From sequence record OR896820.1: a stretch of 64,000 nt of DNA, one strand, 5' to 3'. The DNA is from Escherchia phage Stokescottia. How positions within the stretch are numbered: the first letter of the stretch is position 1; each line of letters opens with the position of its first letter. Below are positions 18,647 through 31,069 of this stretch, one piece after another. The notes below the pieces were generated by a model that had not been told where the DNA came from, searched no databases, and saw only the letters and a list, made by a program, of their open reading frames with translations. Both the position numbers and the translations under genes were made by a program.

Positions 18647-19090
18647 ATGGAAGAGAATATTTTAGATGTTTTGCGTAGAGCTTTGCAGGATTCTAAGTTT
18701 AATGGTTCTGATAAAGAAGTCGCCAAAAGCTATCAGACCATAATTGGGGATCTTCAGCGTATTGATAAAGATTTCATCACTTCTGAACAATTTGTGTCTT
18801 ATCTCAAAGCTCAACTAAAAAGCATTAACCAGATGAAAGCTAAACTTCATGGTCAAGATCTCGATAGTTATAGCCTACAGTCTGCTCAGTATGAATACAT
18901 TCTAAATAAGTGGTTGCAGGAGTATCTGCCCCCTCAGTTATCTGATACTGAGATTCGTAAATACTTTGCAGAATTAGTTAAGCTAAACCCTGGAATTACA
19001 AAGGGTATGCTGATGAAAGCGATTAAGGAAGAATTTCCTGGGCGTTATGATGGTGGTACTGCTGCTCAGATTGCTGGCGAATTTAATTAA
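18647..19090 (+). CDS. GatB/YqeY domain protein
   Basis: C-terminal KGMLMKAIKEEFPGRYDGGTAAQIAGE matches YqeY-like domain. Confidence 0.65.
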   Translation: MEENILDVLRRALQDSKFNGSDKEVAKSYQTIIGDLQRIDKDFITSEQFVSYLKAQLKSINQMKAKLHGQDLDSYSLQSAQYEYILNKWLQEYLPPQLSDTEIRKYFAELVKLNPGITKGMLMKAIKEEFPGRYDGGTAAQIAGEFN

Positions 19091-19140: not shown

Positions 19141-19545
19141 AGGGAACAGCGAGCCGATTACGCTGAGTGCAGAATCCCAACCGGAGCGCATTGAATAGAG
19201 TCGGTGGGTTAGTTGTAAAACTAGTACACAGGGGGCGGCAATTCCGGTTAGTGGCTAGAACGTGTAAAATGAGGCGTCTGAAACCTCTCCCCTAAACTCT
19301 TCTCTAATTTATAAATAGTGGGGTGTGGAAATCACTTATGTAGTAACACTGCCGTCCTAGTATAATTGGTATTATCAAGCCGTAACTGGTGGAAGATGTA
19401 GGTTCGAATCCTACGGTCGGTAAGAACTGGATAACTGGTGCTTTTAACGTAAAAGCTTCCGAGGTTAGTTGCGCACTGCCTAAACCACGCGGTAGTTGGT
19501 TCCAGACTAACCAACCAGTCTGCTGAATAGTTTTATTACGATTTA
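19141..19545 (+). ncRNA. candidate structured non-coding RNA(s), unassigned
   Basis: Promoter-driven ~400 nt without ORF; contains T-arm-like GTAGGTTCGAATCCTAC and a terminal hairpin GTTGGTT-CCAGACT-AACCAAC followed by T-rich tract. Confidence 0.3.
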
Positions 19546-22939: not shown

Positions 22940-22968
22940 TTGCTTGAATGCTAAATTCTCTGTATAAT
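22940..22968 (+). promoter_or_regulatory. sigma70-type early promoter
   Basis: TTGCTT 22940-22945, TATAAT 22963-22968. Confidence 0.6.
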
Positions 22969-22995
22969 ATATCTATAAATTTGAGAGAGGAACCA

Positions 22996-23517
22996 AATAT
23001 GAATGTTGATGAGCTAACACAGCACCTCTTATCTAGAGGATTTGATACAGATAAATATCATTGCTGGTTAAGTCCGGAAGGGTGGCTAACAGTCCCGTTG
23101 TATGATTTCTCTGGAATGTTGAGGGGCTATCAAACTTATAATCCTTCTGCTCCAAAAGGTCATGGTAAGTGCCCCTTTGAAGCTAAATACTTTACTTATT
23201 CTACTACACAGTGTGTATGGGGACTAGAAACTCTCAATGGGGATGAAAAAGTAGTATTGATTGCTGAATCTGTATTTAAGGCAGTTGCATTACATAATGC
23301 TGGTTATCCAGCCCTAGCAATGTTAGGTTCTTCTCCAGGAAAAGCGTTATTAAAGCAACTGAAATTACTACCCTTTAAATTGGTAGCTGTCGGGGATAAT
23401 GATCCTGCGGGTGAAAAATTTGCTAGAAAATTAAACGGCTTTGTTTCTCCCGTAGATGTGGATGAGATGTCTACCGAAAACTTGAAAAATTTTCTTGCTA
23501 TGAAGCTAAATTTCTAA
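22996..23517 (+). CDS. hypothetical protein (possible Toprim-like fold)
   Basis: Start at 22996 after promoter/RBS; VVLIAES....VGDNDPAG resembles Toprim E...DxD. Confidence 0.45.
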   Translation, partial: NMNVDELTQHLLSRGFDTDKYHCWLSPEGWLTVPLYDFSGMLRGYQTYNPSAPKGHGKCPFEAKYFTYSTTQCVWGLETLNGDEKVVLIAESVFKAVALHNAGYPALAMLGSSPGKALLKQLKLLPFKLVAVGDNDPAGEKFARKLNGFVSPVDVDEMSTENLKNFLAMKLNF

Positions 23518-23632: not shown

Positions 23633-23710
23633 GGTTCTCAAGCTCATATGGTATGAGCACCCGGCTCATAACCGGAAGGTACGTAGGTTCGAATCCTCGG
23701 GGAGCCACCA
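23633..23710 (+). tRNA. tRNA with CAT anticodon (Met or Ile-lysidine type)
   Basis: Acceptor GGTTCTC/GGGAGCC, loop CTCATAA; T-stem only 3 clean pairs; discriminator A, CCA. Confidence 0.55.
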
Positions 23711-24213: not shown

Positions 24214-24290
24214 GGGGGTGTAATCGAATTGGCATAGGTACTGGACTTAAAATTCAGGTTTTGTGGGTTCGAATCCCACCACCACTACCA
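24214..24290 (+). tRNA. tRNA-Leu (anticodon TAA), type-I-like scaffold
   Basis: Acceptor GGGGGTG/CACCACT (one mismatch), 3-bp D-stem with 11-nt loop GAATTGGCATA, loop CTTAAAA, discriminator A, CCA; paralog of 28714..28790 with covarying pair 12:24. Confidence 0.6.
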
Positions 24291-24465
24291 AATTAAGGAA
24301 ATAAGATGTATAGACATCCACCTCCGCCAACACGTCGTTCTAGAGAAGTTATTCTCATGGAATTGACTAAAAACTTCAAGGCAACCCTTGAAGATAGAGA
24401 TCTAGGCACGGATGAAGACATTGATTTTATTTGTAGACTATTAAAGATGAAACTGGAGAAACAAC

Positions 24466-24672
24466 ATGGCTAATCCTGAAATTACCGCACAACGTTTCAT
24501 GCTTAAAGGTATGATTGCTGAGGCGGGTATAACTCAAGAGGTTGCAGATTTTCATAAGCAATTTCTTGATATTATAACTCTAGCTAAAGAGACTGGAGAA
24601 AAAGAGCACGGAGCAGCAATTATGGCTATATCTCTTATTAGTCTAGACTTGGCTGAAGAATCTGGAGTTTAG
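24466..24672 (+). CDS. hypothetical protein
   Basis: ORF track. Confidence 0.45.
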   Translation: MANPEITAQRFMLKGMIAEAGITQEVADFHKQFLDIITLAKETGEKEHGAAIMAISLISLDLAEESGV

Positions 24673-24702
24673 CTCCTCCAAACAGAATTTTTAAAAATGT
24701 AC

Positions 24703-24732
24703 TTGCCTTTTGCTTTAAATTTCTGGTATAAT
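24703..24732 (+). promoter_or_regulatory. sigma70-type early promoter
   Basis: TTGCCT 24703-24708, TATAAT 24727-24732. Confidence 0.5.
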
Positions 24733-24762
24733 AATTATATAAATTGATGAAGGAGTTAACTA

Positions 24763-25038
24763 ATGCAAAATCGTGTTATAGCTGCTGGTATTGAAAGTGC
24801 AATCTGTAAATCCTGGGAAGGCTGGGAAGGTGAGATTGAATGGCTTTATTTCTACGATGTAGAACTTCTGCCGGAAATTAAAGCTAAATGTATTGAAGCT
24901 GGCATGGCTCCAGATGCAAAAGCTGATATTGATATTTCAATGTCTGAACTTAAAGGTCGTGTAATCACTGTTAGTGATGAGGGCGAAGAAGTTTTTGAAC
25001 TTCCGTTCTCCTTAACTGTCACTCCTAAGTTCGACTAA
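24763..25038 (+). CDS. hypothetical protein
   Basis: ORF track. Confidence 0.5.
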   Translation: MQNRVIAAGIESAICKSWEGWEGEIEWLYFYDVELLPEIKAKCIEAGMAPDAKADIDISMSELKGRVITVSDEGEEVFELPFSLTVTPKFD

Positions 25039-25074
25039 CTAATACAGCATTGGGCAAGTTCTTTAAAATTTGAC

Positions 25075-25103
25075 TTGCCCAATACTATAAAACTTGATAT
25101 AAT
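25075..25103 (+). promoter_or_regulatory. sigma70-type promoter upstream of tRNA block
   Basis: TTGCCC 25075-25080, TATAAT 25098-25103. Confidence 0.5.
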
Positions 25104-25169
25104 ATTTATCTAATTTGGAAACATATTTAAAAGTGTTTAAATGAGAATTTTTTGAATACTTCTAAATAT

Positions 25170-25257
25170 GGGGAAATATTCTGTAAGTGGTAGCAGAGCT
25201 GACTGTAAATCAGTTGTCATTGCGACTCGGGTGGTTCGACTCCATCTTTCCCCACCA
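25170..25257 (+). tRNA. tRNA-Tyr (anticodon GTA), long variable arm
   Basis: Acceptor GGGGAAA/TTTCCCC, loop CTGTAAA, discriminator A, CCA. Confidence 0.75.
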
Positions 25258-25264
25258 ATTTAAT

Positions 25265-25339
25265 GCACCTATCGTCTAGCGGTTAGGACACCACTCTTTC
25301 ACAGTGGGAACACGAGTTCGATCCTCGTTGGGTGTGCCA
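25265..25339 (+). tRNA. tRNA-Glu (anticodon TTC)
   Basis: Acceptor GCACCTA/TGGGTGT, loop CTTTCAC, discriminator G, CCA. Confidence 0.75.
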
Positions 25340-25348
25340 ATTAATAAT

Positions 25349-25419
25349 TGGGGTACGCATAGGTTGCAAATGGGCCTCCAAAACCCATGAAAAGGTTTCG
25401 AATACCTTTACCCCTGCCA
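25349..25419 (+). tRNA. tRNA-Trp-like (anticodon CCA), compact D-arm
   Basis: 71 nt; T-arm AAGGT-TTCGAAT-ACCTT, CCA-containing anticodon loop (7 or 9 nt depending on register), 1:72 mismatch, discriminator G, CCA. Confidence 0.45.
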
Positions 25420-25425
25420 AAATTT

Positions 25426-25500
25426 GCACCTTTAGCTGAGATGGATTAGCGCTTGCCTGAAGAGCTTGAGAGGTTCGTTCGATACGAACAGGGTGCACCA
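25426..25500 (+). tRNA. tRNA-Phe-like (anticodon GAA)
   Basis: Acceptor GCACCTT/AGGGTGC, loop CTGAAGA, two U-U mismatches in anticodon stem, discriminator A, CCA. Confidence 0.5.
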
Positions 25501-25782
25501 AATTGAAGGAGCTGCTGATGCATCCTGAAAACTTCTTTATTTACTGCGCGGATAAGTCGCTGAAACGTAGAATTAACAAAGTCTATCATTATCGTGCTAG
25601 TCAACAGCCTTATGTATATGCTTTTGACGGTGATCACATTCCCCTAGAACAATTATCTTGTGATTACATGATATTGAAGAACTTTGACGAGACGAAGATC
25701 TCAAGCGTTCATAATCGACAGAATCCATTAACGTGGAAATATAAGAAGAAAAAGAAAGGCATCAAATTCTTAAAAAATGTAG

Positions 25783-25811
25783 TTGCTTAGTTTCCAAAAG
25801 TTCTGTATAAT
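25783..25811 (+). promoter_or_regulatory. sigma70-type early promoter
   Basis: TTGCTT 25783-25788, TATAAT 25806-25811. Confidence 0.6.
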
Positions 25812-25840
25812 AATTACATAAATTGAACTGGAGAAGCAAC

Positions 25841-26065
25841 ATGACAGAACAAGAATTGAATGAACGTAAGCTGGTAATGCTTCGCTTACTAAATATTTTC
25901 TCTGGTATGGACGGTGGAATTGACTTTGTTCTTCTACGTTCTTTCGTAGAAGAAGCCGAAGGCGAATCTATCACTAAAATCCTTAAACACATGGGATTAC
26001 TTTTAGATGCTGCTAATGTGGCTACTGAATATAAACTAGAAGATCTACCGGAGCGTGTTAAATGA
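25841..26065 (+). CDS. hypothetical protein
   Basis: ATG at 25841 after promoter; ORF track 25823..26065. Confidence 0.5.
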   Translation: MTEQELNERKLVMLRLLNIFSGMDGGIDFVLLRSFVEEAEGESITKILKHMGLLLDAANVATEYKLEDLPERVK

Positions 26066-26253
26066 AACGATTAGTTAGATTTAAGTGTTGTGGTTCTGAA
26101 CATACTTTCACACATCTTCGTGAATTTAAAATGTGTGATTGTGGTAAATCAGGCTATGACTCAGGAGATGGGTTCTACACCCGTACTCTAGGGAACTTCA
26201 ATGATCTAGAATTTGAAGATCTCGAAAAACAAGATAAATCGACCGTTGGCTGA
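26062..26253 (+). CDS. Cys-rich small protein
   Basis: CCGSEH...CDCG; 3' end overlaps tRNA-Cys by 14 nt. Confidence 0.45.
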   Translation: MKRLVRFKCCGSEHTFTHLREFKMCDCGKSGYDSGDGFYTRTLGNFNDLEFEDLEKQDKSTVG

Positions 26254-26315
26254 ATGGCTTAGGCGAAGGATTGCAAATCCTTTTTATGTGAGTTCAAATC
26301 TCATGCGGTCGTCCA
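26240..26315 (+). tRNA. tRNA-Cys (anticodon GCA)
   Basis: Acceptor CGACCGT/GCGGTCG, loop TTGCAAA, discriminator T, CCA. Confidence 0.75.
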
Positions 26316-26467
26316 ATTTGCTGAAAGAATTGTTAAATCAATTCAGGCACGCGTAGGAACACTGTCTCCGTAATTGAAAGATGGGGCACGGTTTGGAGAG
26401 GTATGCCGCTACACGCTACGGTGCTAACTCCGTCTAGGTGAAAATCCTAGTCAGCAATGTAAATTTA

Positions 26468-26550
26468 GGGTCGTTAGCCAAGCGGTTTGGCGGCGGATTG
26501 TTAATCCGTGTCGAAAGACAACGTAGGTTCGAATCCTACACGGCCCGCCA
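26468..26550 (+). tRNA. tRNA-Asn (anticodon GTT) with 13-nt variable arm
   Basis: Acceptor GGGTCGT/ACGGCCC, D-stem GCCA/TGGC, loop TTGTTAA, variable stem-loop GTC-GAAA-GAC, discriminator G, CCA. Confidence 0.6.
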
Positions 26551-26652
26551 AATTCTGTGTAGAGTTAAGTAAACCGGTAGCCAATCAGCTATCATTGCTG
26601 ACATCGAATTCAGCCACAGATACCATTTTCATTAATAACTGAGGAAACAAGC

Positions 26653-26838
26653 ATGTCCAAGAATGTAATTGCACAGTTAGAAGTTCATCGTGATAGCACT
26701 ATCAACAATATTGAAGTTGAGAAGAAATACATCGAAGAACTTAAACATGATATACTAGTAAGTCTTAATCGTCTTAATGTACGAAAAGAGTTTCTTAAAG
26801 AACTTAATGCAGCTATTGAAAAACTCAAAGCTGAGTAA
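26653..26838 (+). CDS. hypothetical protein
   Basis: ORF track; coiled-coil-like. Confidence 0.45.
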   Translation: MSKNVIAQLEVHRDSTINNIEVEKKYIEELKHDILVSLNRLNVRKEFLKELNAAIEKLKAE

Positions 26839-26847
26839 ATGAATTAT

Positions 26848-26924
26848 GCGACCGGGGCTGGCTTGGTAATGGTACTCCCCTGTCACGGGAGGGAATGTGG
26901 GTTCAAATCCCATCGGTCGCGCCA
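26848..26924 (+). tRNA. tRNA-Asp (anticodon GTC)
   Basis: Acceptor GCGACCG/CGGTCGC, loop CTGTCAC, discriminator G, CCA. Confidence 0.75.
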
Positions 26925-26950
26925 AACTAAACTAGCACGAGAAAAATGCT

Positions 26951-27298
26951 ATGATTAATGCTAAAGAAGAATTGTTACTTGCCCTAAAGAATACTAATTC
27001 TGAAGTTAAGTGTATTAAGATAGAATTCGGTTATTATGGGGACAAAGAAGTTTGGGTATTACCCGTAGGTTATACAGAAAAAGATATTGAAGATTTTCTA
27101 AATAATCTAGACTTTAAATATGATTCTGGTTTCGGTGGACAATTGCTTTATGGTAACGTATGGTTTACTGATGGAACTTGGTTAGAACGTGGTGAATATG
27201 ATGGTTCTGAATGGTGGGAGTATAAGACTACACCAGCAATCCCTGAGGAATGCCGAACAATTAATGGTGAGGTAGATAATACTTTACGGTTAAACTAA
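26951..27298 (+). CDS. hypothetical protein
   Basis: ORF track. Confidence 0.5.
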   Translation: MINAKEELLLALKNTNSEVKCIKIEFGYYGDKEVWVLPVGYTEKDIEDFLNNLDFKYDSGFGGQLLYGNVWFTDGTWLERGEYDGSEWWEYKTTPAIPEECRTINGEVDNTLRLN

Positions 27299-27420
27299 TA
27301 AAATTTCAGTGCAGAACACGGAGCTAGCAATTCGGAAGTGCTGACTCATGATAAGCTGCCTATGTACTTGCGAAGCGGTCGTGTCCAAGACTCGGACTCT
27401 TGCACTGAAAACAATCAAAC

Positions 27421-27540
27421 ATTCTAGCGTGGTTGATGGGGAAACCAGCTTGGCGAGGGCAGAAGCTCGTTCGATTCGAGTGAAAGAATGGTTCTCGTAA
27501 GTCCGCACAAGTGATAACAGGTTCGAGTCCTGTCTAGAAT
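27421..27540 (+). ncRNA. tRNA-like element with ~45-nt internal insertion (no encoded CCA)
   Basis: Perfect 7-bp acceptor ATTCTAG/CTAGAAT, D-arm TGGT...ACCA, T-arm ACAGG-TTCGAGT-CCTGT, 120 nt with internal hairpins. Confidence 0.35.
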
Positions 27541-27690
27541 GACACTATAAAGTTTACTTATTATGTAGGTTCCGGTAGATCGGCGGGTCTATTCTGGCAT
27601 TTAAGAGAGGTCTCGCAAACTTCTTTGTCAGCCGTGGGGTTGGTAGCCTCCAGGCGGCCTACACAATAAGTAAATTTATTAAAAATTCAT

Positions 27691-27719
27691 TTGCTATTCT
27701 GCTTAATTCTCTGTATAAT
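27691..27719 (+). promoter_or_regulatory. sigma70-type early promoter
   Basis: TTGCTA 27691-27696, TATAAT 27714-27719. Confidence 0.6.
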
Positions 27720-27904
27720 ATATTTTATAAAGTGAAGAGAAGGAAAGCAAAATGAAACACAAGATAGCTCAAGTTTTTATGGCATTATGGTGTATGCCAA
27801 TAGCTGTAACAGCTTTTAATCTAGATACTTTTACTATAGAAGAAAAATATATCGGATTAGTTAGCGGCTTTAGTATACTTGGCTTATCTTTGTTGTGGTT
27901 GAAG

Positions 27905-27982
27905 AAATAATATTCTCCGTGTAGCTCAGTTTGGCCAGAGCGTTTCGTTTGGGGCGATAGGGTCGGGGGTTCAAATCCTCCC
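27905..27982 (+). tRNA. tRNA-Pro (anticodon TGG)
   Basis: Acceptor CTCCGTG/CACGGAG, D-stem GCTC/GAGC, loop TTTGGGG, discriminator A, CCA. Confidence 0.7.
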
Positions 27983-27988
27983 ACGGAG

Positions 27989-28066
27989 ACCAAACAATTG
28001 CGGGTTAGATCTCTGGTAGAGATCGCTAGTCTCATAAGCTAGAAAGAGGTAGGTTCGATTCCTGCA
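27989..28066 (+). tRNA. tRNA with CAT anticodon (Met or Ile-lysidine type)
   Basis: Acceptor TGCGGGT/ACCCGCT (1:72 U-U), D-stem ATCT/AGAT, loop CTCATAA, discriminator T, CCA. Confidence 0.55.
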
Positions 28067-28265
28067 CCCGCTTCCATTTTAATAGGGGATTTCGAAATGA
28101 AAGTATTTCGATTAGTAGTAAGTGACAAACGTTTAGGTAAGAATACCTCAAAATCATTACTTGCTCATTATGGTAAAAATTGGGATGAAGTAATGGTAGA
28201 GTTTAATACTAATCACCCTTACTTGAAAGTTCACTCTATTAAAGAAGTATACAATGGTTACTAAT

Positions 28266-28344
28266 AGATCGCTAGCTCAATAGGTTTAGTAGCATCCGAC
28301 TTTTAATCGGAAGGTTCTGGGTTCGAGTCCCAGGCGATCTACCA
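28266..28344 (+). tRNA. tRNA-Lys (anticodon TTT)
   Basis: Acceptor AGATCGC/GCGATCT, loop CTTTTAA, discriminator A, CCA. Confidence 0.75.
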
Positions 28345-28363
28345 ATTTCAAGAAAAAACGCAG

Positions 28364-28392
28364 TTGCTTGATGCTTAATTTCTTGTTATAAT
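28364..28392 (+). promoter_or_regulatory. sigma70-type promoter driving leader RNA and tRNA block
   Basis: TTGCTT 28364-28369, TATAAT 28387-28392. Confidence 0.6.
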
Positions 28393-28629
28393 ATTTATAT
28401 AAATTGATGAGGAGAAATCCTCATCATAGTTCACTAAGGTATTAGCTCGACCTAGGACTGGCTGCCAAAAAGCACGATCCCCATGATTCGGGAGAAGTTC
28501 TAGATTGGTCCACTAGATTCAGCGGCAACTGAATAGTGTATTGGGTTTGCGAGATGACGCAGTTCCTTCCGCTCGAAGCGAAGGTGCTGTAGTTACGCCG
28601 AGCTAATAGCCTTAGTAAACTAAAGAATT

Positions 28630-28708
28630 TGGGGAATGGGTCTGCATGGAGTGGACACCTCGCTTGCACCGAGGACATCAGAACGGTTCGATTCCGTTAT
28701 TCTCCACC
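28630..28708 (+). tRNA. tRNA-Ala (anticodon TGC)
   Basis: Acceptor GGGGAAT/ATTCTCC with G3-U70, loop CTTGCAC, discriminator A, CCA. Confidence 0.7.
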
Positions 28709-28713
28709 AAATA

Positions 28714-28790
28714 CGCGTGATTGATGGAATTGGCATACATACCGTCCTTAGAAGTCGGGTTTTGAGGGTTCGAATCCCTTGTCACGCACC
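28714..28790 (+). tRNA. tRNA-Leu (anticodon TAG), type-I-like scaffold
   Basis: Acceptor GCGTGAT/GTCACGC, same scaffold as 24214..24290, loop CTTAGAA, discriminator A, CCA. Confidence 0.6.
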
Positions 28791-28902
28791 AAATTTGATG
28801 GTCAGAGTAAATTAAACCTACTATCTCGGTTGAGCTGTTTTAATGGGTTCGAATCCCAGCGAGGCGTAACTGCCTGGTGTGATAGAGGCATCATCTTATT
28901 AT
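28791..28902 (+). ncRNA. unassigned RNA element with T-arm-like hairpin
   Basis: ATGGG-TTCGAAT-CCCA motif with no pairing acceptor stem or CCA; adjacent hairpin AGGC-GTAACT-GCCT. Confidence 0.25.
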
Positions 28903-28993
28903 TGGAAGAGCAAATCGAATTGGCGACGAAAACCGCTTGGAAAGTGGCTGACTGGTAAAACGGCTTGAGAGTTCAAATCTCTCCTCTTCCGCC
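28903..28993 (+). tRNA. tRNA-Ser (anticodon GGA), long variable arm
   Basis: Acceptor GGAAGAG/CTCTTCC, loop TTGGAAA, 19-nt variable arm, discriminator G, CCA. Confidence 0.7.
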
Positions 28994-29013
28994 AAACACT
29001 TGAGGTAATAATA

Positions 29014-29361
29014 ATGCTAGCAAAAGATAAAGCTCTAGAGTTTTTAGCATCTTTAGATGAAGATAAGATTATAGATGCTGCTGAAAAAGCTGGAATGCCA
29101 GATTTAACATATCTGGAACGTGCTATTATTGCTCGTGATAAACTACAGAAAGAGTTTGCTATTGCTCAGGAGGAGTTTTATACTCGCTATAACGCTCTTA
29201 CTAAGCAAATTGAAAATGAGTGTTCTCATACTTGGGGAGTAACAGAAAACCTAGGTAATGATCACGATGGCTGGTCTAAAGTAAAAATTACCTACTACCA
29301 TCGTAGGACTTGTAAAATTTGTGGAAAAGTAGAAAACTTCACTAGTACGAGTGACTATTAG
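29014..29361 (+). CDS. hypothetical protein with C-terminal Cys pair
   Basis: ORF track; CSH...CKICG. Confidence 0.5.
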   Translation: MLAKDKALEFLASLDEDKIIDAAEKAGMPDLTYLERAIIARDKLQKEFAIAQEEFYTRYNALTKQIENECSHTWGVTENLGNDHDGWSKVKITYYHRRTCKICGKVENFTSTSDY

Positions 29362-29374
29362 TATAATAAATACT

Positions 29375-29464
29375 AGAAGATAGGACGTAGTGGTACGTAA
29401 CTGGTCTTGAAAACTAGCCCGCTGTAGTGATACGGTGATGGTTCGACTCCATTATCTTCTGCCA
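29375..29464 (+). tRNA. tRNA-Ser (anticodon TGA), long variable arm
   Basis: Acceptor AGAAGAT/ATCTTCT, loop CTTGAAA, long variable arm, discriminator G, CCA. Confidence 0.75.
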
Positions 29465-29665
29465 ATTAACTATAAGGAAATCTTATGAGCAAAACAGTTA
29501 CTGTAACAATGAAGGATGGTAAAAAATTTAAAGCATGTCTTCATGAAACAGATAAGGGATGGATGGCTTATTTGCCACACCTAGATTCCACCAGGTACGG
29601 AATGACCCAACGTGAAGCTATTGTTGATGCTTTAAATGAGGCTTCTGCTGGTTTATAAAAATTCT

Positions 29666-29796
29666 TGAAGTATGCCGGAATTGGTAGACGGGGCTGCCTA
29701 AAAGGTTTATAGAGAACATCCACTCTCTACAACATACCTCATAAAGCGGCTGAGATAAATGGTCTATCTCGTGAAGGTTCAAGTCCTTCTGCTTCT
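29666..29796 (+). ncRNA. tRNA-like element with ~40-nt insertion in the anticodon region (no encoded CCA)
   Basis: Acceptor TGAAGTA/TGCTTCT (6 pairs), D-arm CCG-GAATTGGTAGA-CGG, helix GCTGC/GCGGC enclosing 48 nt, hairpin GAGATA-AATGGTC-TATCTC, T-arm GAAGG-TTCAAGT-CCTTC. Confidence 0.35.
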
Positions 29797-30026
29797 TGAT
29801 ACATCTATGGCTCAAAGTGTAACGGTGCTATTTGATGCTCTTAGTAAGACTTCCCCGACATGCGTTCGGGAGTAAGCTGCTAAGGCTAGAGTAGAAGAGT
29901 TTCTGAGAGCCGCCACAATTGAAAATTCGTACTCGTCTTGAGCTGCGTGCAATAGGAGATAACTTGATTAGTATTCTAGAACATGCTAATTGAGGAAGGT
30001 TTCGCTAACCCTGCGAGTTTTCAATT

Positions 30027-30103
30027 GTGGCTATATCATAATTGGTTAATGATCCTGATTGTGAATCAGGCCTATGTGGATTCGAGTTCCACTAGCCACC
30101 CCA
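30027..30103 (+). tRNA. tRNA-His (anticodon GTG)
   Basis: Acceptor GTGGCTA/TAGCCAC, loop TTGTGAA, discriminator C, CCA; the 5' acceptor strand can also pair with 29910-29923. Confidence 0.7.
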
Positions 30104-30128
30104 AATTAACTTAAATAGGAAATAATAT

Positions 30129-30329
30129 ATGGCTGATTTCTGCAAACAATGCTCCATTGATATGTGGGGCAGAGATACTGGTGATCTTTCTGGTTTGATT
30201 ACAGAAGCCGAAGTTAAAGAAGGCTACGGTGCTGTTGTAATCTGTGAAGGTTGTGGTGTTATTCGTGTAGATCATGAAGGCAAACGTCTAGAAGAACCAG
30301 AACCAATAGCCACGGTTCCTGTAGAGTAA
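30129..30329 (+). CDS. Cys-rich small protein
   Basis: CKQC...CEGC pattern. Confidence 0.5.
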   Translation: MADFCKQCSIDMWGRDTGDLSGLITEAEVKEGYGAVVICEGCGVIRVDHEGKRLEEPEPIATVPVE

Positions 30330-30337
30330 AGAATTAT

Positions 30338-30413
30338 TGGAGTGTAGATCAATTGGCAGATCGTCGGCCTCTGACTTCGAAGGTTCCTGGTTCGATCCCA
30401 GGCACTCCAGCCA
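30338..30413 (+). tRNA. tRNA-Gln (anticodon CTG)
   Basis: Acceptor TGGAGTG/CACTCCA with U1-A72, D-stem GATC/GATC, loop CTCTGAC, discriminator G, CCA. Confidence 0.6.
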
Positions 30414-30419
30414 AATAAT

Positions 30420-30495
30420 TGGAGAGTAGTGTAACGGTTAGCACAACGGCCTTTGACTCCGTTAATGGTAGGTTCGATTCCTCCTTCTCCAGCCA
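30420..30495 (+). tRNA. tRNA-Gln (anticodon TTG)
   Basis: Acceptor TGGAGAG/TTCTCCA with U1-A72, loop CTTTGAC, discriminator G, CCA. Confidence 0.6.
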
Positions 30496-30503
30496 AACAA
30501 TAA

Positions 30504-30579
30504 GCGGTTAAGCACACGGGTTGTGTCGCAGGCCTTCCAAGCCTCGCTGAGTAGGGTTCGATTCCCTCTAGCCGCTCCA
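30504..30579 (+). tRNA. tRNA-Gly (anticodon TCC)
   Basis: Acceptor GCGGTTA/TAGCCGC, loop CTTCCAA, discriminator T, CCA. Confidence 0.65.
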
Positions 30580-30595
30580 ACTTTAAGGAAACGTT

Positions 30596-30817
30596 ATGCA
30601 CGTTTTTGAGTTTCGTAATAAAAGTACCGATAAACGAGTTATTGTTATTGGAGAAACATACCGAGCATATGAACAAACTGACGGCTCTGTTATCCTGAAT
30701 GATGAGAAAGGGGGTTTTAGCTTTTATCCCAAAGAAACTTACGAAGAATTTCGTACAAAGTTTCTTCTACCAGACTGGCTAGAAGTAGCGCAGCAACGAG
30801 AACCCGAAGATGGCTGA
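30596..30817 (+). CDS. hypothetical protein
   Basis: ORF track. Confidence 0.5.
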   Translation: MHVFEFRNKSTDKRVIVIGETYRAYEQTDGSVILNDEKGGFSFYPKETYEEFRTKFLLPDWLEVAQQREPEDG

Positions 30818-30982
30818 TAACCTAAAAGTCAAGATCGATAAACAAAAGAAACGTGTAGAAGTAGAGATTGGTGAAGAACGTGTAGCCTTCACCTTTGAAT
30901 TTCTACAACAAATGGCAATGACAGTCATGACTGATAAGTCTCCTGTTATTGAAAAAGAAATCCCGTTGAAATAACGGGTTCT

Positions 30983-31069
30983 GCTGGGTTGGCAGAATGG
31001 TTGAATGCACCTGATTTGTAATCAGGAGGAGTAATCCCATTGCAGGTTCGAATCCTGTGCCCAGCACCA
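30983..31069 (+). tRNA. tRNA-Thr (anticodon TGT) with 15-nt variable region
   Basis: Acceptor GCTGGGT/GCCCAGC, 3-bp D-stem with 11-nt loop, anticodon stem CCTGA/TCAGG, loop TTTGTAA, discriminator A, CCA. Confidence 0.6.

What the first reader, a model, noticed from the sequence alone, without database searches (positions are those of the whole stretch)
24214..31069. Atypical tRNA architectures: short-variable-arm Leu(TAA)/Leu(TAG) paralogs and long-variable-arm Asn(GTT) and Thr(TGT)
Two paralogous 77-nt tRNAs (24214-24290 and 28714-28790) share a 3-bp D-stem with an 11-nt loop and a 5-nt variable loop, yet carry Leu anticodons TAA and TAG with discriminator A; a compensatory change at pair 12:24 supports the fold. 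Conversely the Asn(GTT) tRNA (83 nt) and Thr(TGT) tRNA (87 nt) have 13-15-nt variable regions. Bacterial Leu tRNAs are normally long-arm and Asn/Thr short-arm, so either the identity rules are bent or my anticodon registers are wrong for these four. Discriminator bases across the other 21 tRNAs match the assigned identities, which supports the overall set.
Basis: partly seen in the sequence, partly recalled or inferred. Interest (0 to 1): 0.6.

Follow-up and report, generated by a model that had tools for sequence, protein, structure and literature searches.

The report
Phage tRNAs with switched variable-arm architecture
A T5-like phage carries working leucine tRNAs that lack the usual long extra arm and asparagine and threonine tRNAs that have gained a small extra hairpin; these odd shapes recur in many unrelated phages, are rare in cells, and may help phage tRNAs escape bacterial tRNA-cutting defences.

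Summary
The window is the tRNA region of a T5-like phage. T5 itself has a long-arm Leu(UAG) and short Thr/Asn at the same slots, so these are alternative alleles.

Both oddities belong to large phage families. Short-arm Leu tRNAs are about 40% of Leu tRNAs in the sampled viral contigs. Long-arm Asn(GUU) and Thr(UGU) carry 3-4 bp hairpins, mostly GNRA-capped and supported by covariation. The Asn pattern gave real tRNAs in 89/120 viral matches but 3/120 cellular ones.

Synthetase identity elements are retained: A73, A14, A15:U48, G18G19 (Leu); G73+GUU (Asn, 70/70); G1-C72, C2-G71 (Thr, 59/59). GenBank notes and two papers show near-identical alleles work in E. coli. Thr(UGU) and Asn(GUU) are targets of the PARIS AriB nuclease, and Thr(UGU) also of P2 OLD.

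Most likely these are canonical-identity tRNAs with remodelled bodies, selected as defence-resistant substitutes. That the arm itself causes resistance is inferred, not shown. Searched papers do not discuss the architecture.

The parts
24214..24290 (+). tRNA-Leu(UAA), short-arm form. Layout: 7-bp acceptor stem (G1.U72, with a G3.A70 mismatch unique to this phage), 3-bp D stem ATC/GGT, D loop GAATTGGCATA, anticodon at 24248-24250, 5-nt variable loop GTTTT at 24258-24262, A73, encoded CCA.
   Evidence: ARAGORN; Rfam 51.3 bits with alignment; family covariation. The GenBank note on the corresponding 77-nt phage 5 gene tRNAL2 (not aligned to the window here) says its CUA derivative is an effective amber suppressor.
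28715..28791 (+). tRNA-Leu(UAG), short-arm paralog. D stem ATG/CAT, same D loop and variable loop as Leu(UAA), A73, encoded CCA. It lies 5 nt after tRNA-Ala(UGC), the slot where T5 has an 85-nt long-arm Leu(UAG).
   Evidence: ARAGORN; Rfam 47.5 bits; 100% identical in BF23, Bas33 and others; T5 comparison.
26468..26550 (+). tRNA-Asn(GUU), long-arm form. It has a class-I type D arm (4-bp stem, 7-nt loop). The anticodon stem GCGGA/TCCGT is identical to E. coli asnT, and it has G73. The 13-nt variable region is 26510-26522, including the hairpin GTC-GAAA-GAC at 26510-26519.
   Evidence: ARAGORN; Rfam 58.4 bits with a 10-nt variable-region insertion; host comparison; family analysis.
30983..31069 (+). 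tRNA-Thr(UGU), long-arm form. It has G1-C72, C2-G71 and A73. The D arm is class-II type (3-bp stem GCA/TGC, 11-nt loop GAATGGTTGAA). Four of the five anticodon-stem pairs (CTGA/TCAG) match E. coli thrU. The 15-nt variable region is 31027-31041, including the hairpin GGA-GTAA-TCC at 31028-31037.
   Evidence: ARAGORN; Rfam 58.9 bits; covariation in 22 equal-length relatives; 86/87 identical to the phage Bas33 gene, whose Thr(UGU) tRNA was tested against OLD.

Best explanation
All four are genuine, expressed tRNA genes in the tRNA-rich region of a T5-like phage (Demerecviridae). They read the codons their anticodons indicate and are most likely charged with the expected amino acids by host synthetases. 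What has changed is the body of the molecule, not its identity.

The two Leu tRNAs keep the D arm and tertiary elements that E. coli LeuRS recognises: a 3-bp stem, an 11-nt GAAUUGGYAUA loop, A14, A15:U48, G18G19, A20a and A73. They have lost the long variable arm, which LeuRS does not need.

Asn(GUU) and Thr(UGU) keep the anticodon, discriminator and acceptor-pair elements used by AsnRS and ThrRS. They also keep host-like anticodon stems (asnT-identical in Asn; four of five pairs as in thrU in Thr). Each has gained a small GNRA-capped hairpin at the hinge between the anticodon stem and the T stem.

These are alternative alleles at fixed slots of the T5-like tRNA region. They belong to old, widespread families that are strongly enriched in phages.

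The inferred selective reason is defence evasion. The phage supplies replacements for host tRNAs that defence nucleases destroy, and the remodelled architecture makes the replacements poor substrates. For Thr and Asn, the added arm sits next to the cleavage sites of the Toprim nucleases AriB (between 40 and 41) and OLD (after 27-29).

What is shown: gene reality, fold, conservation, retention of identity elements, and function of near-identical alleles in E. coli. What is inferred: canonical charging, and above all that the arm change itself is what confers nuclease resistance.
For: Reality and fold:
- ARAGORN and Infernal agree on the anticodons.
- In a gapless alignment of 22 distinct long-arm Thr tRNAs, 97% of cells are paired, and the variable-arm stem and the 3-bp D stem each have 3/3 pairs with changes on both sides; 0/500 shuffles reach the observed values.
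- In 12 short-arm Leu tRNAs, 98.8% of cells are paired and 18/20 pairs have changes on both sides.

Alternative alleles:
- T5 has Leu(UAG) 85 nt, Thr 75 nt and Asn 78 nt at the same slots.
- Bas28 has Leu(UAG) 81 nt, Thr 75 nt and Asn 86 nt. Bas33 has the same types as the window.

Phage-wide families:
- 89/120 viral pattern matches are long-arm Asn(GUU) tRNAs (70 unique), against 3/120 in cellular genomes.
- 74/120 viral matches are long-arm Thr(UGU) tRNAs.
- Hairpins of at least 3 bp occur in 87% (Asn) and 92% (Thr), against about 50% in shuffles. GNRA loops occur in 44/69 and 24/59, and each family has at least 30 distinct stem sequences.
- Short-arm forms are 45/105 and 18/42 of unique Leu tRNAs in the two viral samples.
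- They occur in FelixO1-like, Vequintavirinae and Vibrio Demerecviridae phages.

Identity elements retained:
- Asn: G73 in 70/70. Thr: G1-C72 and C2-G71 in 59/59. Short Leu: A73 in 60/64.
- U8, A14, G18, G19, U48 and A73 are invariant in the T5-type Leu family.
- The Leu D-arm signature occurs only with Leu anticodons (UAA, UAG, AAG, CAA): 18/18 among 1841 unique viral tRNAs.
- LeuRS rules are taken from review PMC9976931.

Function:
- GenBank AJ604531 notes say CUA derivatives of the 87-nt Thr, 83-nt Asn and 77-nt Leu(UAA) act as amber suppressors in E. coli.
- The Bas33 Thr(UGU), 86/87 identical to the window's, strongly rescues phages from P2 OLD, while T5's short Thr rescues only partly.
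- Bas33 escapes PARIS when given only Lys(UUU), so its own long-arm Thr and Asn suffice.

Link to defence:
- AriB's main targets are Lys(UUU), Thr(UGU) and Asn(GUU), cut between 40 and 41. OLD cuts Thr(UGU) after positions 27-29.
- Among 10 named phages, every long-arm Thr or Asn keeps U36AAUC (positions 36-40) as in the host, while all class-I alleles differ from the host within 39-41 (G39 in 7 of 8).
Against: - No charging or cleavage experiment exists for these exact molecules with and without the arm, so the causal role of the arm is untested.
- T4 and HK446 Thr(UGU) tRNAs also resist OLD; their architecture was not examined here. The FelixO1-like phage KhF2 carries a 77-nt Thr(UGU). So an arm is not necessary for resistance.
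- The split at position 39 (host-like versus mutated) seen in named enterobacterial phages is only a weak trend in environmental contigs: U39 in 38/65 long against 13/30 short Thr.
- No nuclease is known that would select against the long arm of tRNA-Leu.
- Lys(UUU), the prime AriB target, rarely carries an arm.
- Amber suppression by the CUA derivatives of the long-arm Thr and Asn, but not of T5's short alleles, shows they can be charged without their cognate anticodon. This leaves room for relaxed identity.
Confidence: 0.6

Rival explanations
1. Relaxed or dual identity. The added arm makes the Thr(UGU) and Asn(GUU) tRNAs substrates for synthetases that read class-II architecture and ignore the anticodon (LeuRS or TyrRS for the A73 Thr; SerRS for the G73 Asn). 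ACA and AAY codons would then be read ambiguously or recoded, as with nematode nev-tRNAs or bacterial allo-tRNAs.
For: - CUA-anticodon derivatives of the long-arm Thr ('effective') and Asn are amber suppressors, while T5's class-I Thr and Asn derivatives are not. So they are charged independently of the cognate anticodon.
- The Thr D arm is close to E. coli serT (GAATGGTTGAA against GAGCGGTTGAA) and has A15:U48 and A73, as Leu does.
- The window Asn has G1-C72, G2-C71 and G73, as tRNA-Ser does, plus a GAAA-capped arm as in serT.
Against: - Thr: 59/59 family members keep G1-C72 and C2-G71. These are ThrRS determinants, and C2-G71 is an anti-determinant for SerRS.
- Thr lacks the Leu-type spacing of G18G19 and lacks A20a.
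- Asn: 70/70 keep G73 with GUU, and about a third to 40% (28 of the 57 sequences in the listed acceptor combinations) have C2-G71. The D arm is class-I type and the stem is only 3-4 bp.
- Suppression by the CUA forms is also explained by known mischarging of amber suppressors. GlnRS reads U35, G2-C71, G3-C70 and G73; LysRS or TyrRS read U35 and A73. This is established knowledge and is partly covered.
- The Bas33 Thr restores plaque formation when host Thr(UGU) is destroyed.
Confidence: 0.12
2. Neutral drift under relaxed constraint. Phage tRNAs work only briefly in a cell that has its own tRNAs, so losing a dispensable arm (Leu) or gaining a harmless hairpin (Asn, Thr) is tolerated and spreads by hitch-hiking with homing-endonuclease-driven exchange of tRNA genes. 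It would have no adaptive role.
For: - The long arm is dispensable for E. coli LeuRS.
- Arm length varies among alleles: Leu(UAG) is 85, 81 or 77 nt.
- The tRNA region is a mosaic with HNH endonuclease genes.
- Occasional long forms occur in many isotypes.
Against: - The hairpins are maintained by compensatory changes, with a strongly preferred GAAA/GNRA cap, across very divergent tRNA bodies.
- The change is isotype-specific. Long forms are common for Asn GUU, Thr UGU and Ile UAU, and none were seen for Val, Asp or Thr GGU/CGU in the unselected Thr-scan sample; long forms of Gln, Glu and His are rare or absent.
- The architectures are rare in cellular genomes.
Confidence: 0.18
3. The hairpin is a handle for a phage-encoded factor rather than a shield. 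The factor could be a processing or modification enzyme, a chaperone, or a decoy-binding protein that marks phage tRNAs apart from host tRNAs.
For: - The GNRA loop is conserved, which is typical of recognition elements.
- The tRNA region encodes a YqeY-like protein (18647-19090; 25.4 bits, below the cut-off). A homologous slot lies inside the tRNA cluster of Vibrio phage Thalassa.
- A protein that the T5 record describes as Toprim-related lies directly upstream of tRNA-Ser(GCU).
Against: - The long-arm tRNAs work when expressed alone from plasmids in uninfected E. coli or with unrelated phages.
- The architecture occurs in unrelated phage families that share no obvious common accessory gene; this was not tested systematically.
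Confidence: 0.08
4. Artefact: mis-predicted or decayed tRNA genes.
For: Unusual lengths; some nearby tRNA-like RNAs in T5-like phages have no known function.
Against: High covariance-model scores, two concordant predictors, covariation, encoded CCA, conservation in hundreds of genomes, and experimental activity.
Confidence: 0.02

Closest known systems
T5 anti-defence tRNAs: T5 tRNA-Lys(UUU), Thr(UGU) and Asn(GUU) that neutralise PARIS AriB, and phage Thr(UGU) tRNAs that neutralise P2 OLD
   Same: Same phage group, same slots in the tRNA region and same isoacceptors (Thr UGU, Asn GUU). A near-identical allele (Bas33) was used in the OLD work.
   Different: The T5 alleles are ordinary short-arm tRNAs with substitutions at or near the cleavage site (36-41 is UAAGCA or UAAGUU). 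The window's alleles keep host-like anticodon stems and instead carry an extra hairpin. A term search of the main text of those papers for 'variable' found nothing.
Class-I tRNA-Leu of animal mitochondria, and engineered E. coli tRNA-Leu lacking the variable arm
   Same: Leucine tRNAs without a long arm that are still leucylated through A73 and core/tertiary elements (review PMC9976931).
   Different: The window's tRNAs are natural, non-organellar and robustly folded. They use a bacterial cytosolic LeuRS and keep the full Leu-type D arm.
nev-tRNAs of nematodes and allo-tRNAs of bacteria (tRNAs with a variable arm and anticodons of class-I amino acids)
   Same: A variable arm on tRNAs whose anticodons belong to amino acids normally served by short-arm tRNAs.
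   Different: Those carry Leu or Ser identity sets and mis-decode, and allo-tRNAs have 8/4 or 9/3 acceptor/T stems. Here the acceptor/T arrangement is 7/5, the arm is only 3-4 bp, and the cognate Asn/Thr identity elements are invariant.
Bacterial tRNA-Ser (for example E. coli serT)
   Same: The Thr(UGU) D arm (3-bp stem, GAATGGTTGAA) and a GNRA-capped arm resemble serT (GAGCGGTTGAA; arm GACCC-GAAA-GGGTT).
   Different: The discriminator is A73, not G73. The second pair is C2-G71, not G2-C71. The arm has 3 bp, not 5. The anticodon stem resembles thrU.

Membership tests
tRNA (Rfam RF00005) | Cloverleaf matching the covariance model above the gathering score, with a 7-nt anticodon loop | tested here: met
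   All four score 47.5-58.9 bits against a gathering score of 29. The anticodon loops in the three alignments shown are CUUAAAA, UUGUUAA and UUUGUAA.
tRNA (Rfam RF00005) | Helices supported by compensatory substitutions among relatives | tested here: met
   Thr family: 19/23 pairs have changes on both sides. Leu family: 18/20. In both, 0/500 shuffles reach the observed values.
Bacterial class-II tRNA-Leu | Long variable arm (10 nt or more, with a stem) | tested here: not met
   Both have a 5-nt loop, GTTTT. E. coli leuZ and leuW have 15 and 13 nt.
Bacterial class-II tRNA-Leu | E. coli LeuRS identity set: A73, A14, A15:U48, G18G19 in an 11-nt D loop on a 3-bp stem, A20a | tested here: met
   The D loop is GAATTGGCATA, against GAATCGGTAGA and AAATTGGTAGA in E. 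coli. U8, A14, G18, G19, U48 and A73 are invariant in the family.
Bacterial class-II tRNA-Leu | Leucylation by LeuRS | not testable with these tools
   Indirect evidence only. The CUA derivative of the phage 5 tRNAL2 (77 nt) is an effective amber suppressor (GenBank note). The scaffold occurs with four different Leu anticodons and with no others.
tRNA-Asn (AsnRS substrate) | Anticodon GUU plus discriminator G73 | tested here: met
   True of the window gene and of 70/70 unique long-arm relatives.
tRNA-Asn (AsnRS substrate) | Class-I variable loop of 4-5 nt | tested here: not met
   The variable region is 13 nt with the hairpin GTC-GAAA-GAC.
tRNA-Thr (ThrRS substrate) | G1-C72, C2-G71 and anticodon G35 U36 | tested here: met
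   True of the window gene and of 59/59 unique long-arm relatives.
tRNA-Thr (ThrRS substrate) | Class-I architecture (4-bp D stem, 5-nt variable loop) | tested here: not met
   It has a 3-bp D stem, an 11-nt D loop and a 15-nt variable region with a hairpin.
nev-tRNA / allo-tRNA type recoding tRNAs | A full Leu or Ser identity set combined with a non-Leu/Ser anticodon | tested here: inconclusive
   Thr has A73 and A15:U48, but Ser-type G18G19 spacing, no A20a, and C2-G71, which counts against SerRS. Asn has G1-C72, G2-C71 and G73, but a class-I D arm and only a 3-bp arm. Amber-suppressor notes show charging without the cognate anticodon.
nev-tRNA / allo-tRNA type recoding tRNAs | 8/4 or 9/3 acceptor/T-stem arrangement (allo-tRNA) | tested here: not met
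   The arrangement is 7/5 in all four.
Phage anti-defence (nuclease-resistant) tRNAs | Same anticodon as a host tRNA destroyed by a known defence nuclease | tested here: met
   Thr(UGU) and Asn(GUU) are AriB targets, and Thr(UGU) is an OLD target (papers). No such target is known for Leu(UAA) or Leu(UAG).
Phage anti-defence (nuclease-resistant) tRNAs | Substitutions at or next to the cleavage site | tested here: not met
   Positions 36-41 are UAAUCA (Thr) and UAAUCC (Asn), identical to E. coli thrU and asnT. The Asn does have C16 where asnT has U16.
Phage anti-defence (nuclease-resistant) tRNAs | Demonstrated resistance or rescue | not testable with these tools
   From the literature only. The Bas33 Thr (86/87 identical) rescues strongly from OLD, and Bas33 needs only Lys(UUU) to escape PARIS.

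The most novel reading that the evidence does not exclude
Changing the variable arm may be a general phage strategy of 'architectural camouflage'. The phage keeps a host-like anticodon stem-loop (so decoding, modification and synthetase recognition are unchanged) but adds a small GNRA-capped hairpin at the 26/44 hinge of Thr(UGU), Asn(GUU) and Ile(UAU), or deletes the arm of Leu. Immune tRNases that dock on the anticodon stem and core, such as the Toprim nucleases AriB and OLD and possibly enzymes specific for class-II tRNAs, can then no longer bind. A bolder variant is that the arm also allows charging without the anticodon and so controlled ambiguous decoding.
Probability: 0.3. Interest if true: 0.8.

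Novelty: new variant of a known kind. Interest (0 to 1): 0.6.

Why it matters
Textbooks say bacterial-type tRNA-Leu always has a long arm and Asn/Thr never do. Here natural tRNAs that work in E. coli break both rules, and they do so repeatedly across unrelated phage families. This gives tRNA biologists natural tests of which body elements LeuRS, AsnRS and ThrRS really need.

For phage-defence research it offers a concrete, cheap experiment. Two papers found that phage Thr(UGU) alleles differ in how well they counter PARIS and OLD, without explaining why. The stronger Bas33 allele is the long-arm one. Arm-swap constructs in existing AriB and OLD cleavage assays would show whether architecture, and not only anticodon-loop mutation, is an escape route.

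It also matters for annotation. Isotype-specific tRNA models and length filters may mis-score these genes.

Tried and rejected
- **Wrong anticodon register.** Rejected, because ARAGORN and Infernal agree.
- **Pseudogenes.** Rejected on scores, covariation, conservation and experimental notes.
- **Recent capture from the host.** Blastn of the Thr and Leu(TAG) genes against 5,426 complete E. coli genomes gave no match. Only the anticodon stems resemble host genes.
- **Common in cells.** The Leu and Thr patterns could not be run on cellular genomes.
- **A general rule that long-arm tRNAs keep U39 and short-arm ones mutate it.** This holds for the 10 named phages but is only a weak trend in environmental contigs, so I do not claim it generally.
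- **Prior description in the literature.** Eight full-text searches and ten papers were read. None discusses short-arm Leu or long-arm Asn/Thr in phages (15, 17, 26, 37, 38, 43, 44, 55, 85, 89). The 1980s-2000s papers of the Ksenzenko group are not in the library, so prior mention there cannot be excluded.
- **Pfam on the 'amidotransferase' ORF.** Only a sub-threshold YqeY match.
- **Not attempted.** Protein homology and structure tools were not used because the finding concerns RNA genes. No 3D modelling of tRNA-nuclease complexes was possible.

Full report
**1.
ARAGORN finds 21 tRNA genes on the + strand between 19.9 and 32.1 kb. The four in question are these (structures, sequences):

| tRNA | Coordinates | Length | Variable region |
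|---|---|---|---|
| Leu(taa) | 24214-24290 | 77 nt | GTTTT (5 nt) |
| Leu(tag) | 28715-28791 | 77 nt | GTTTT (5 nt) |
| Asn(gtt) | 26468-26550 | 83 nt | GTCGAAAGACAAC (13 nt) |
| Thr(tgt) | 30983-31069 | 87 nt | AGGAGTAATCCCATT (15 nt) |

- Rfam's tRNA model scores the four at 51.3, 47.5, 58.4 and 58.9 bits against a gathering score of 29.
- The Infernal alignments shown for Leu(TAA), Asn and Thr put UAA, GUU and UGU in the anticodon position. They treat the extra Asn and Thr bases as insertions in the variable region.
- Both Leu genes have a 3-bp D stem, the 11-nt D loop GAATTGGCATA and A73.

**2. Where the window comes from.**
- The region is 94-97% identical to the tRNA-rich region of T5-like phages (Demerecviridae, Markadamsvirinae). 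The best match is Escherichia phage phiP4, where the same four genes are annotated with the same identities.
- T5 itself differs at exactly these slots. It has a canonical 85-nt long-arm Leu(UAG) 5 nt after tRNA-Ala, a 75-nt Thr(UGU) and a 78-nt Asn(GUU), all with unrelated sequences. It has no Leu(UAA).
- Bas28 has an 81-nt Leu(UAG), a 75-nt Thr and an 86-nt Asn.
- Bas33 has the window's types. Its Thr is 86/87 identical. Its Asn is a second long-arm allele whose arm is ATCC-GCAA-GGAT.
- So these are alternative alleles in a mosaic region that also holds homing-endonuclease genes.
- In the phage genome collection, one query spanning the tRNA region matched about 1200 records. Single-gene queries at 95% identity or better matched:
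  - 97 records for the long-arm Thr;
  - 161 records for the short-arm Leu(UAG), including BF23;
  - 269 records for the 83-nt Asn.

**3. The architectures are widespread in phages.**
- More distant matches lie in unrelated phages.
  - Aeromonas T4-like PX29 has an 82-nt Asn (no encoded CCA) and an 85-nt Thr.
  - Erwinia phage Hena1 has an 86-nt Asn and an 87-nt Trp(CCA) with a GGG-GAAA-CCC arm.
  - Klebsiella KB57 has an 85-nt Asn and a short Leu(UAG); ARAGORN also calls a second short Leu-like gene there.
  - FelixO1-like KhF2 has three Leu tRNAs, all short.
  - Vibrio phage Thalassa has a 77-nt Leu(UAG).
- A pattern scan of viral contigs for Asn(GUU) with a long variable region gave 120 loci (capped). 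Of these, 89 hold a long-arm Asn tRNA, 70 of them unique.
The rest are chance matches.
- A Thr(UGU) scan gave 74/120 viral loci with long-arm tRNAs of 82-90 nt.
- Frequencies can also be read from isotypes that a given scan did not select for. The figures below come from the Thr-selected loci, except where noted:
  - Asn(GUU) is long in 5/34.
  - Thr(UGU) is long in 4/24 (from the Asn-selected loci).
  - Ile(UAU) is long in 7/22.
  - Leu tRNAs are short in 18/42 (and in 45/105 in the Asn-selected loci).

**4. The folds are under selection.**
- The variable regions form hairpins of at least 3 bp in 87% (Asn) and 92% (Thr) of unique sequences, against about 50% after shuffling. GNRA loops occur in 44/69 and 24/59, and GAAA alone in 38 and 16. 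Each family has at least 30 different inner stem sequences.
- A gapless alignment of 22 distinct 84-nt Thr tRNAs gives 97% paired cells. All three arm pairs and all three D-stem pairs change on both sides, and no shuffle out of 500 reaches the observed values.
- Twelve T5-type short-arm Leu tRNAs give 98.8% paired cells, and 18/20 pairs have changes on both sides.

**5. Identity elements are kept.**
- According to a 2023 review, E. coli LeuRS needs neither the anticodon nor the long arm. It needs A73, the A15-U48 pair, G18G19 and A20a, and truncated tRNA-Leu lacking the arm stays active.
- The window's Leu tRNAs have all of these. Their D loop differs from E. coli leuZ and leuW at 3 of 11 positions each. 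U8, A14, G18, G19, U48 and A73 are invariant in the family.
- The D-arm signature occurs in 18 of 1841 unique viral tRNAs. All 18 carry Leu anticodons (UAA, UAG, AAG, CAA); 11 are short-arm and 7 long-arm. This fits a scaffold that specifies leucine and arose from class-II Leu by loss of the arm.
- Short-arm Leu tRNAs in general have A73 in 60/64.
- All 70 long-arm Asn tRNAs have G73 with GUU. All 59 long-arm Thr tRNAs have G1-C72 and C2-G71. These are the AsnRS and ThrRS determinants.
- The window's Asn has the same anticodon stem as E. coli asnT (GCGGA/TCCGT). Its Thr shares CTGA/TCAG with thrU.
- The Thr D arm resembles serT. The molecule therefore looks like a Thr acceptor end and a thrU-like anticodon arm on a class-II core.

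**6. Experimental evidence that already exists.**
- The GenBank record of the 'Bacteriophage 5 tRNA gene region' (AJ604531) annotates the same alleles: Thr 87 nt (98.9% identical), Asn 83 nt (96.4% identical), and Leu 77 nt. Its notes say that replacing the anticodon with CUA turns the Thr and the Leu(UUA-reading) tRNAs into effective amber suppressors, and the Asn into a suppressor. The T5 record says the short Thr and Asn do not become suppressors.
- This shows the odd tRNAs are transcribed, processed, charged and used by E. coli ribosomes. It also shows that the long-arm forms can be charged without their cognate anticodon. That can be explained by known mischarging of amber suppressors (GlnRS, LysRS, TyrRS), but it keeps a relaxed-identity rival alive.
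- Belukhina et al. 2025 showed that PARIS AriB cleaves E. coli Lys(UUU), Thr(UGU) and Asn(GUU) between positions 40 and 41, next to a U36AAU motif. A second monomer is predicted to contact D-loop U16-U17.
- The same paper reports that Bas33 is rescued by T5 Lys(UUU) alone. Bas33 lacks Lys(UUU) but has the long-arm Thr and Asn.
- A 2026 preprint shows that P2 OLD cleaves Thr(UGU) and others after positions 27-29. Bas33 (and Bas32) Thr(UGU) rescue strongly, and T5's Thr rescues only partly.
- Term searches for 'variable' in these papers found no mention of the variable arm.

**7. Mechanism.**
- Shown: these are real, functional tRNAs; they keep cognate identity elements; the isoacceptors Thr(UGU) and Asn(GUU) are defence targets; near-identical alleles protect phages.
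- Inferred: the arm is the protective change. Three points argue for this.
  - First, the hairpin is placed in the 44-45 part of the variable region, at the hinge, a few nucleotides from both cleavage sites.
  - Second, in ten named phages every long-arm Thr or Asn keeps U36AAUC as in the host, while all short alleles differ from the host within 39-41 (G39 in 7 of 8). U39 mutation abolishes AriB cleavage of tRNA-Lys.
  - Third, the isotypes most often carrying arms in these samples (Asn GUU, Thr UGU, Ile UAU) all decode A-starting codons and all have U36.
- Against it:
  - T4 and HK446 Thr(UGU) tRNAs, whose architecture was not examined here, also resist OLD.
  - The position-39 pattern is weak in environmental contigs.
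  - Lys(UUU) rarely has an arm.
  - No nuclease is known that would favour arm loss in Leu.
  - For Leu the safest statement is that the arm is dispensable for LeuRS and has been lost repeatedly or anciently in phages. A defence-evasion reason is speculation by analogy with eukaryotic Schlafens, which prefer class-II tRNAs.

**8. Comparison with known things, and novelty.**
- The closest functional relatives are the T5 anti-PARIS and anti-OLD tRNAs. The closest structural analogues are mitochondrial class-I tRNA-Leu, engineered arm-less E. coli tRNA-Leu, and nev-/allo-tRNAs.
- The genes themselves are annotated in hundreds of records and have been used experimentally, so they are not new.
- I could not find in the searchable literature the recognition that they form phage-enriched, class-switched tRNA families, or the link to the Toprim nuclease targets.
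- I rate this a new variant of a known kind, with interest 0.6.

Noticed in passing
window 29663-29807 (+): A tRNA-like RNA. It has a Leu-type D arm (CCG-GAATTGGTAGA-CGG), a 6-bp variable arm (GAGATA/TATCTC), a normal T arm, and an anticodon arm enlarged by about 40 nt. It aligns with T5 'RNA1', which the T5 record annotates as a tRNA-like stable RNA of unknown function. Rfam tRNA gives only 25 bits.
   Followed up: partly
window 30504-30579 (+): tRNA-Gly(UCC) with U73 and an encoded CCA. ARAGORN misses it and Rfam finds it only below threshold (as tRNA-Sec, 30.9 bits). It corresponds to T5 tRNAG1.
   Followed up: partly
window 23633-23710 (+) and 19351-19422 (+): Two further Rfam tRNA hits that ARAGORN misses. 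The first has a CAU anticodon and corresponds to T5 tRNAI2, probably an Ile tRNA. The second is tRNA-like with an aberrant anticodon loop and lies at the position of T5 'RNAX'.
   Followed up: no
window 24216 / 24283 (Leu(UAA) pair 3:70): This phage has a G3.A70 mismatch in the acceptor stem, where phiP4, Bas33 and Bas28 have G3-C70. G1.U72 is conserved in all of them.
   Followed up: partly
window 18647-19090 (+): A 147-aa ORF just upstream of the tRNA region with a sub-threshold YqeY (GatB tail-like, tRNA-binding) match of 25.4 bits against a cut-off of 27. Relatives annotate it as 'tRNA amidotransferase'. A similarly annotated 'tRNA amidotransferase' gene (not compared by sequence) lies inside the tRNA cluster of Vibrio phage Thalassa (L368 6545-6988).
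   Followed up: partly
window 22948-23517 (+): A 189-aa ORF ending 21 nt before tRNA-Ser(GCU). The T5 record (T5.076) describes the counterpart as matching a Toprim sub-domain shared with primases and OLD-family nucleases. This is worth noting because host Toprim nucleases (AriB, OLD) cut tRNAs.
   Followed up: no
L368 7373-7465 and 5587-5673; L003 3992-4078; many IMG/VR loci: Other isotypes that normally lack a variable arm carry one in phages. Ile(UAU) is 88-93 nt in 9/14 and 7/22 unique genes. Trp(CCA) is 87 nt in Erwinia phage Hena1. Gly(UCC) is 87 nt in Vibrio phage Thalassa.
   Followed up: partly
window 27999-28076 (+): An initiator-type tRNA-Met with a U1.U72 mismatch and a U discriminator. 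It is annotated as tRNA-fMet in T5.
   Followed up: no
window 28266-28344 (+): tRNA-Lys(UUU) is 79 nt with an enlarged D loop. By inference from the closely related phiP4 allele and the window's ARAGORN structure, positions 36-41 read UAAUCG; this was not read directly from the window. That differs from the T5 allele (UAAACC), which was shown to resist AriB, so the Lys slot also holds alternative alleles.
   Followed up: partly
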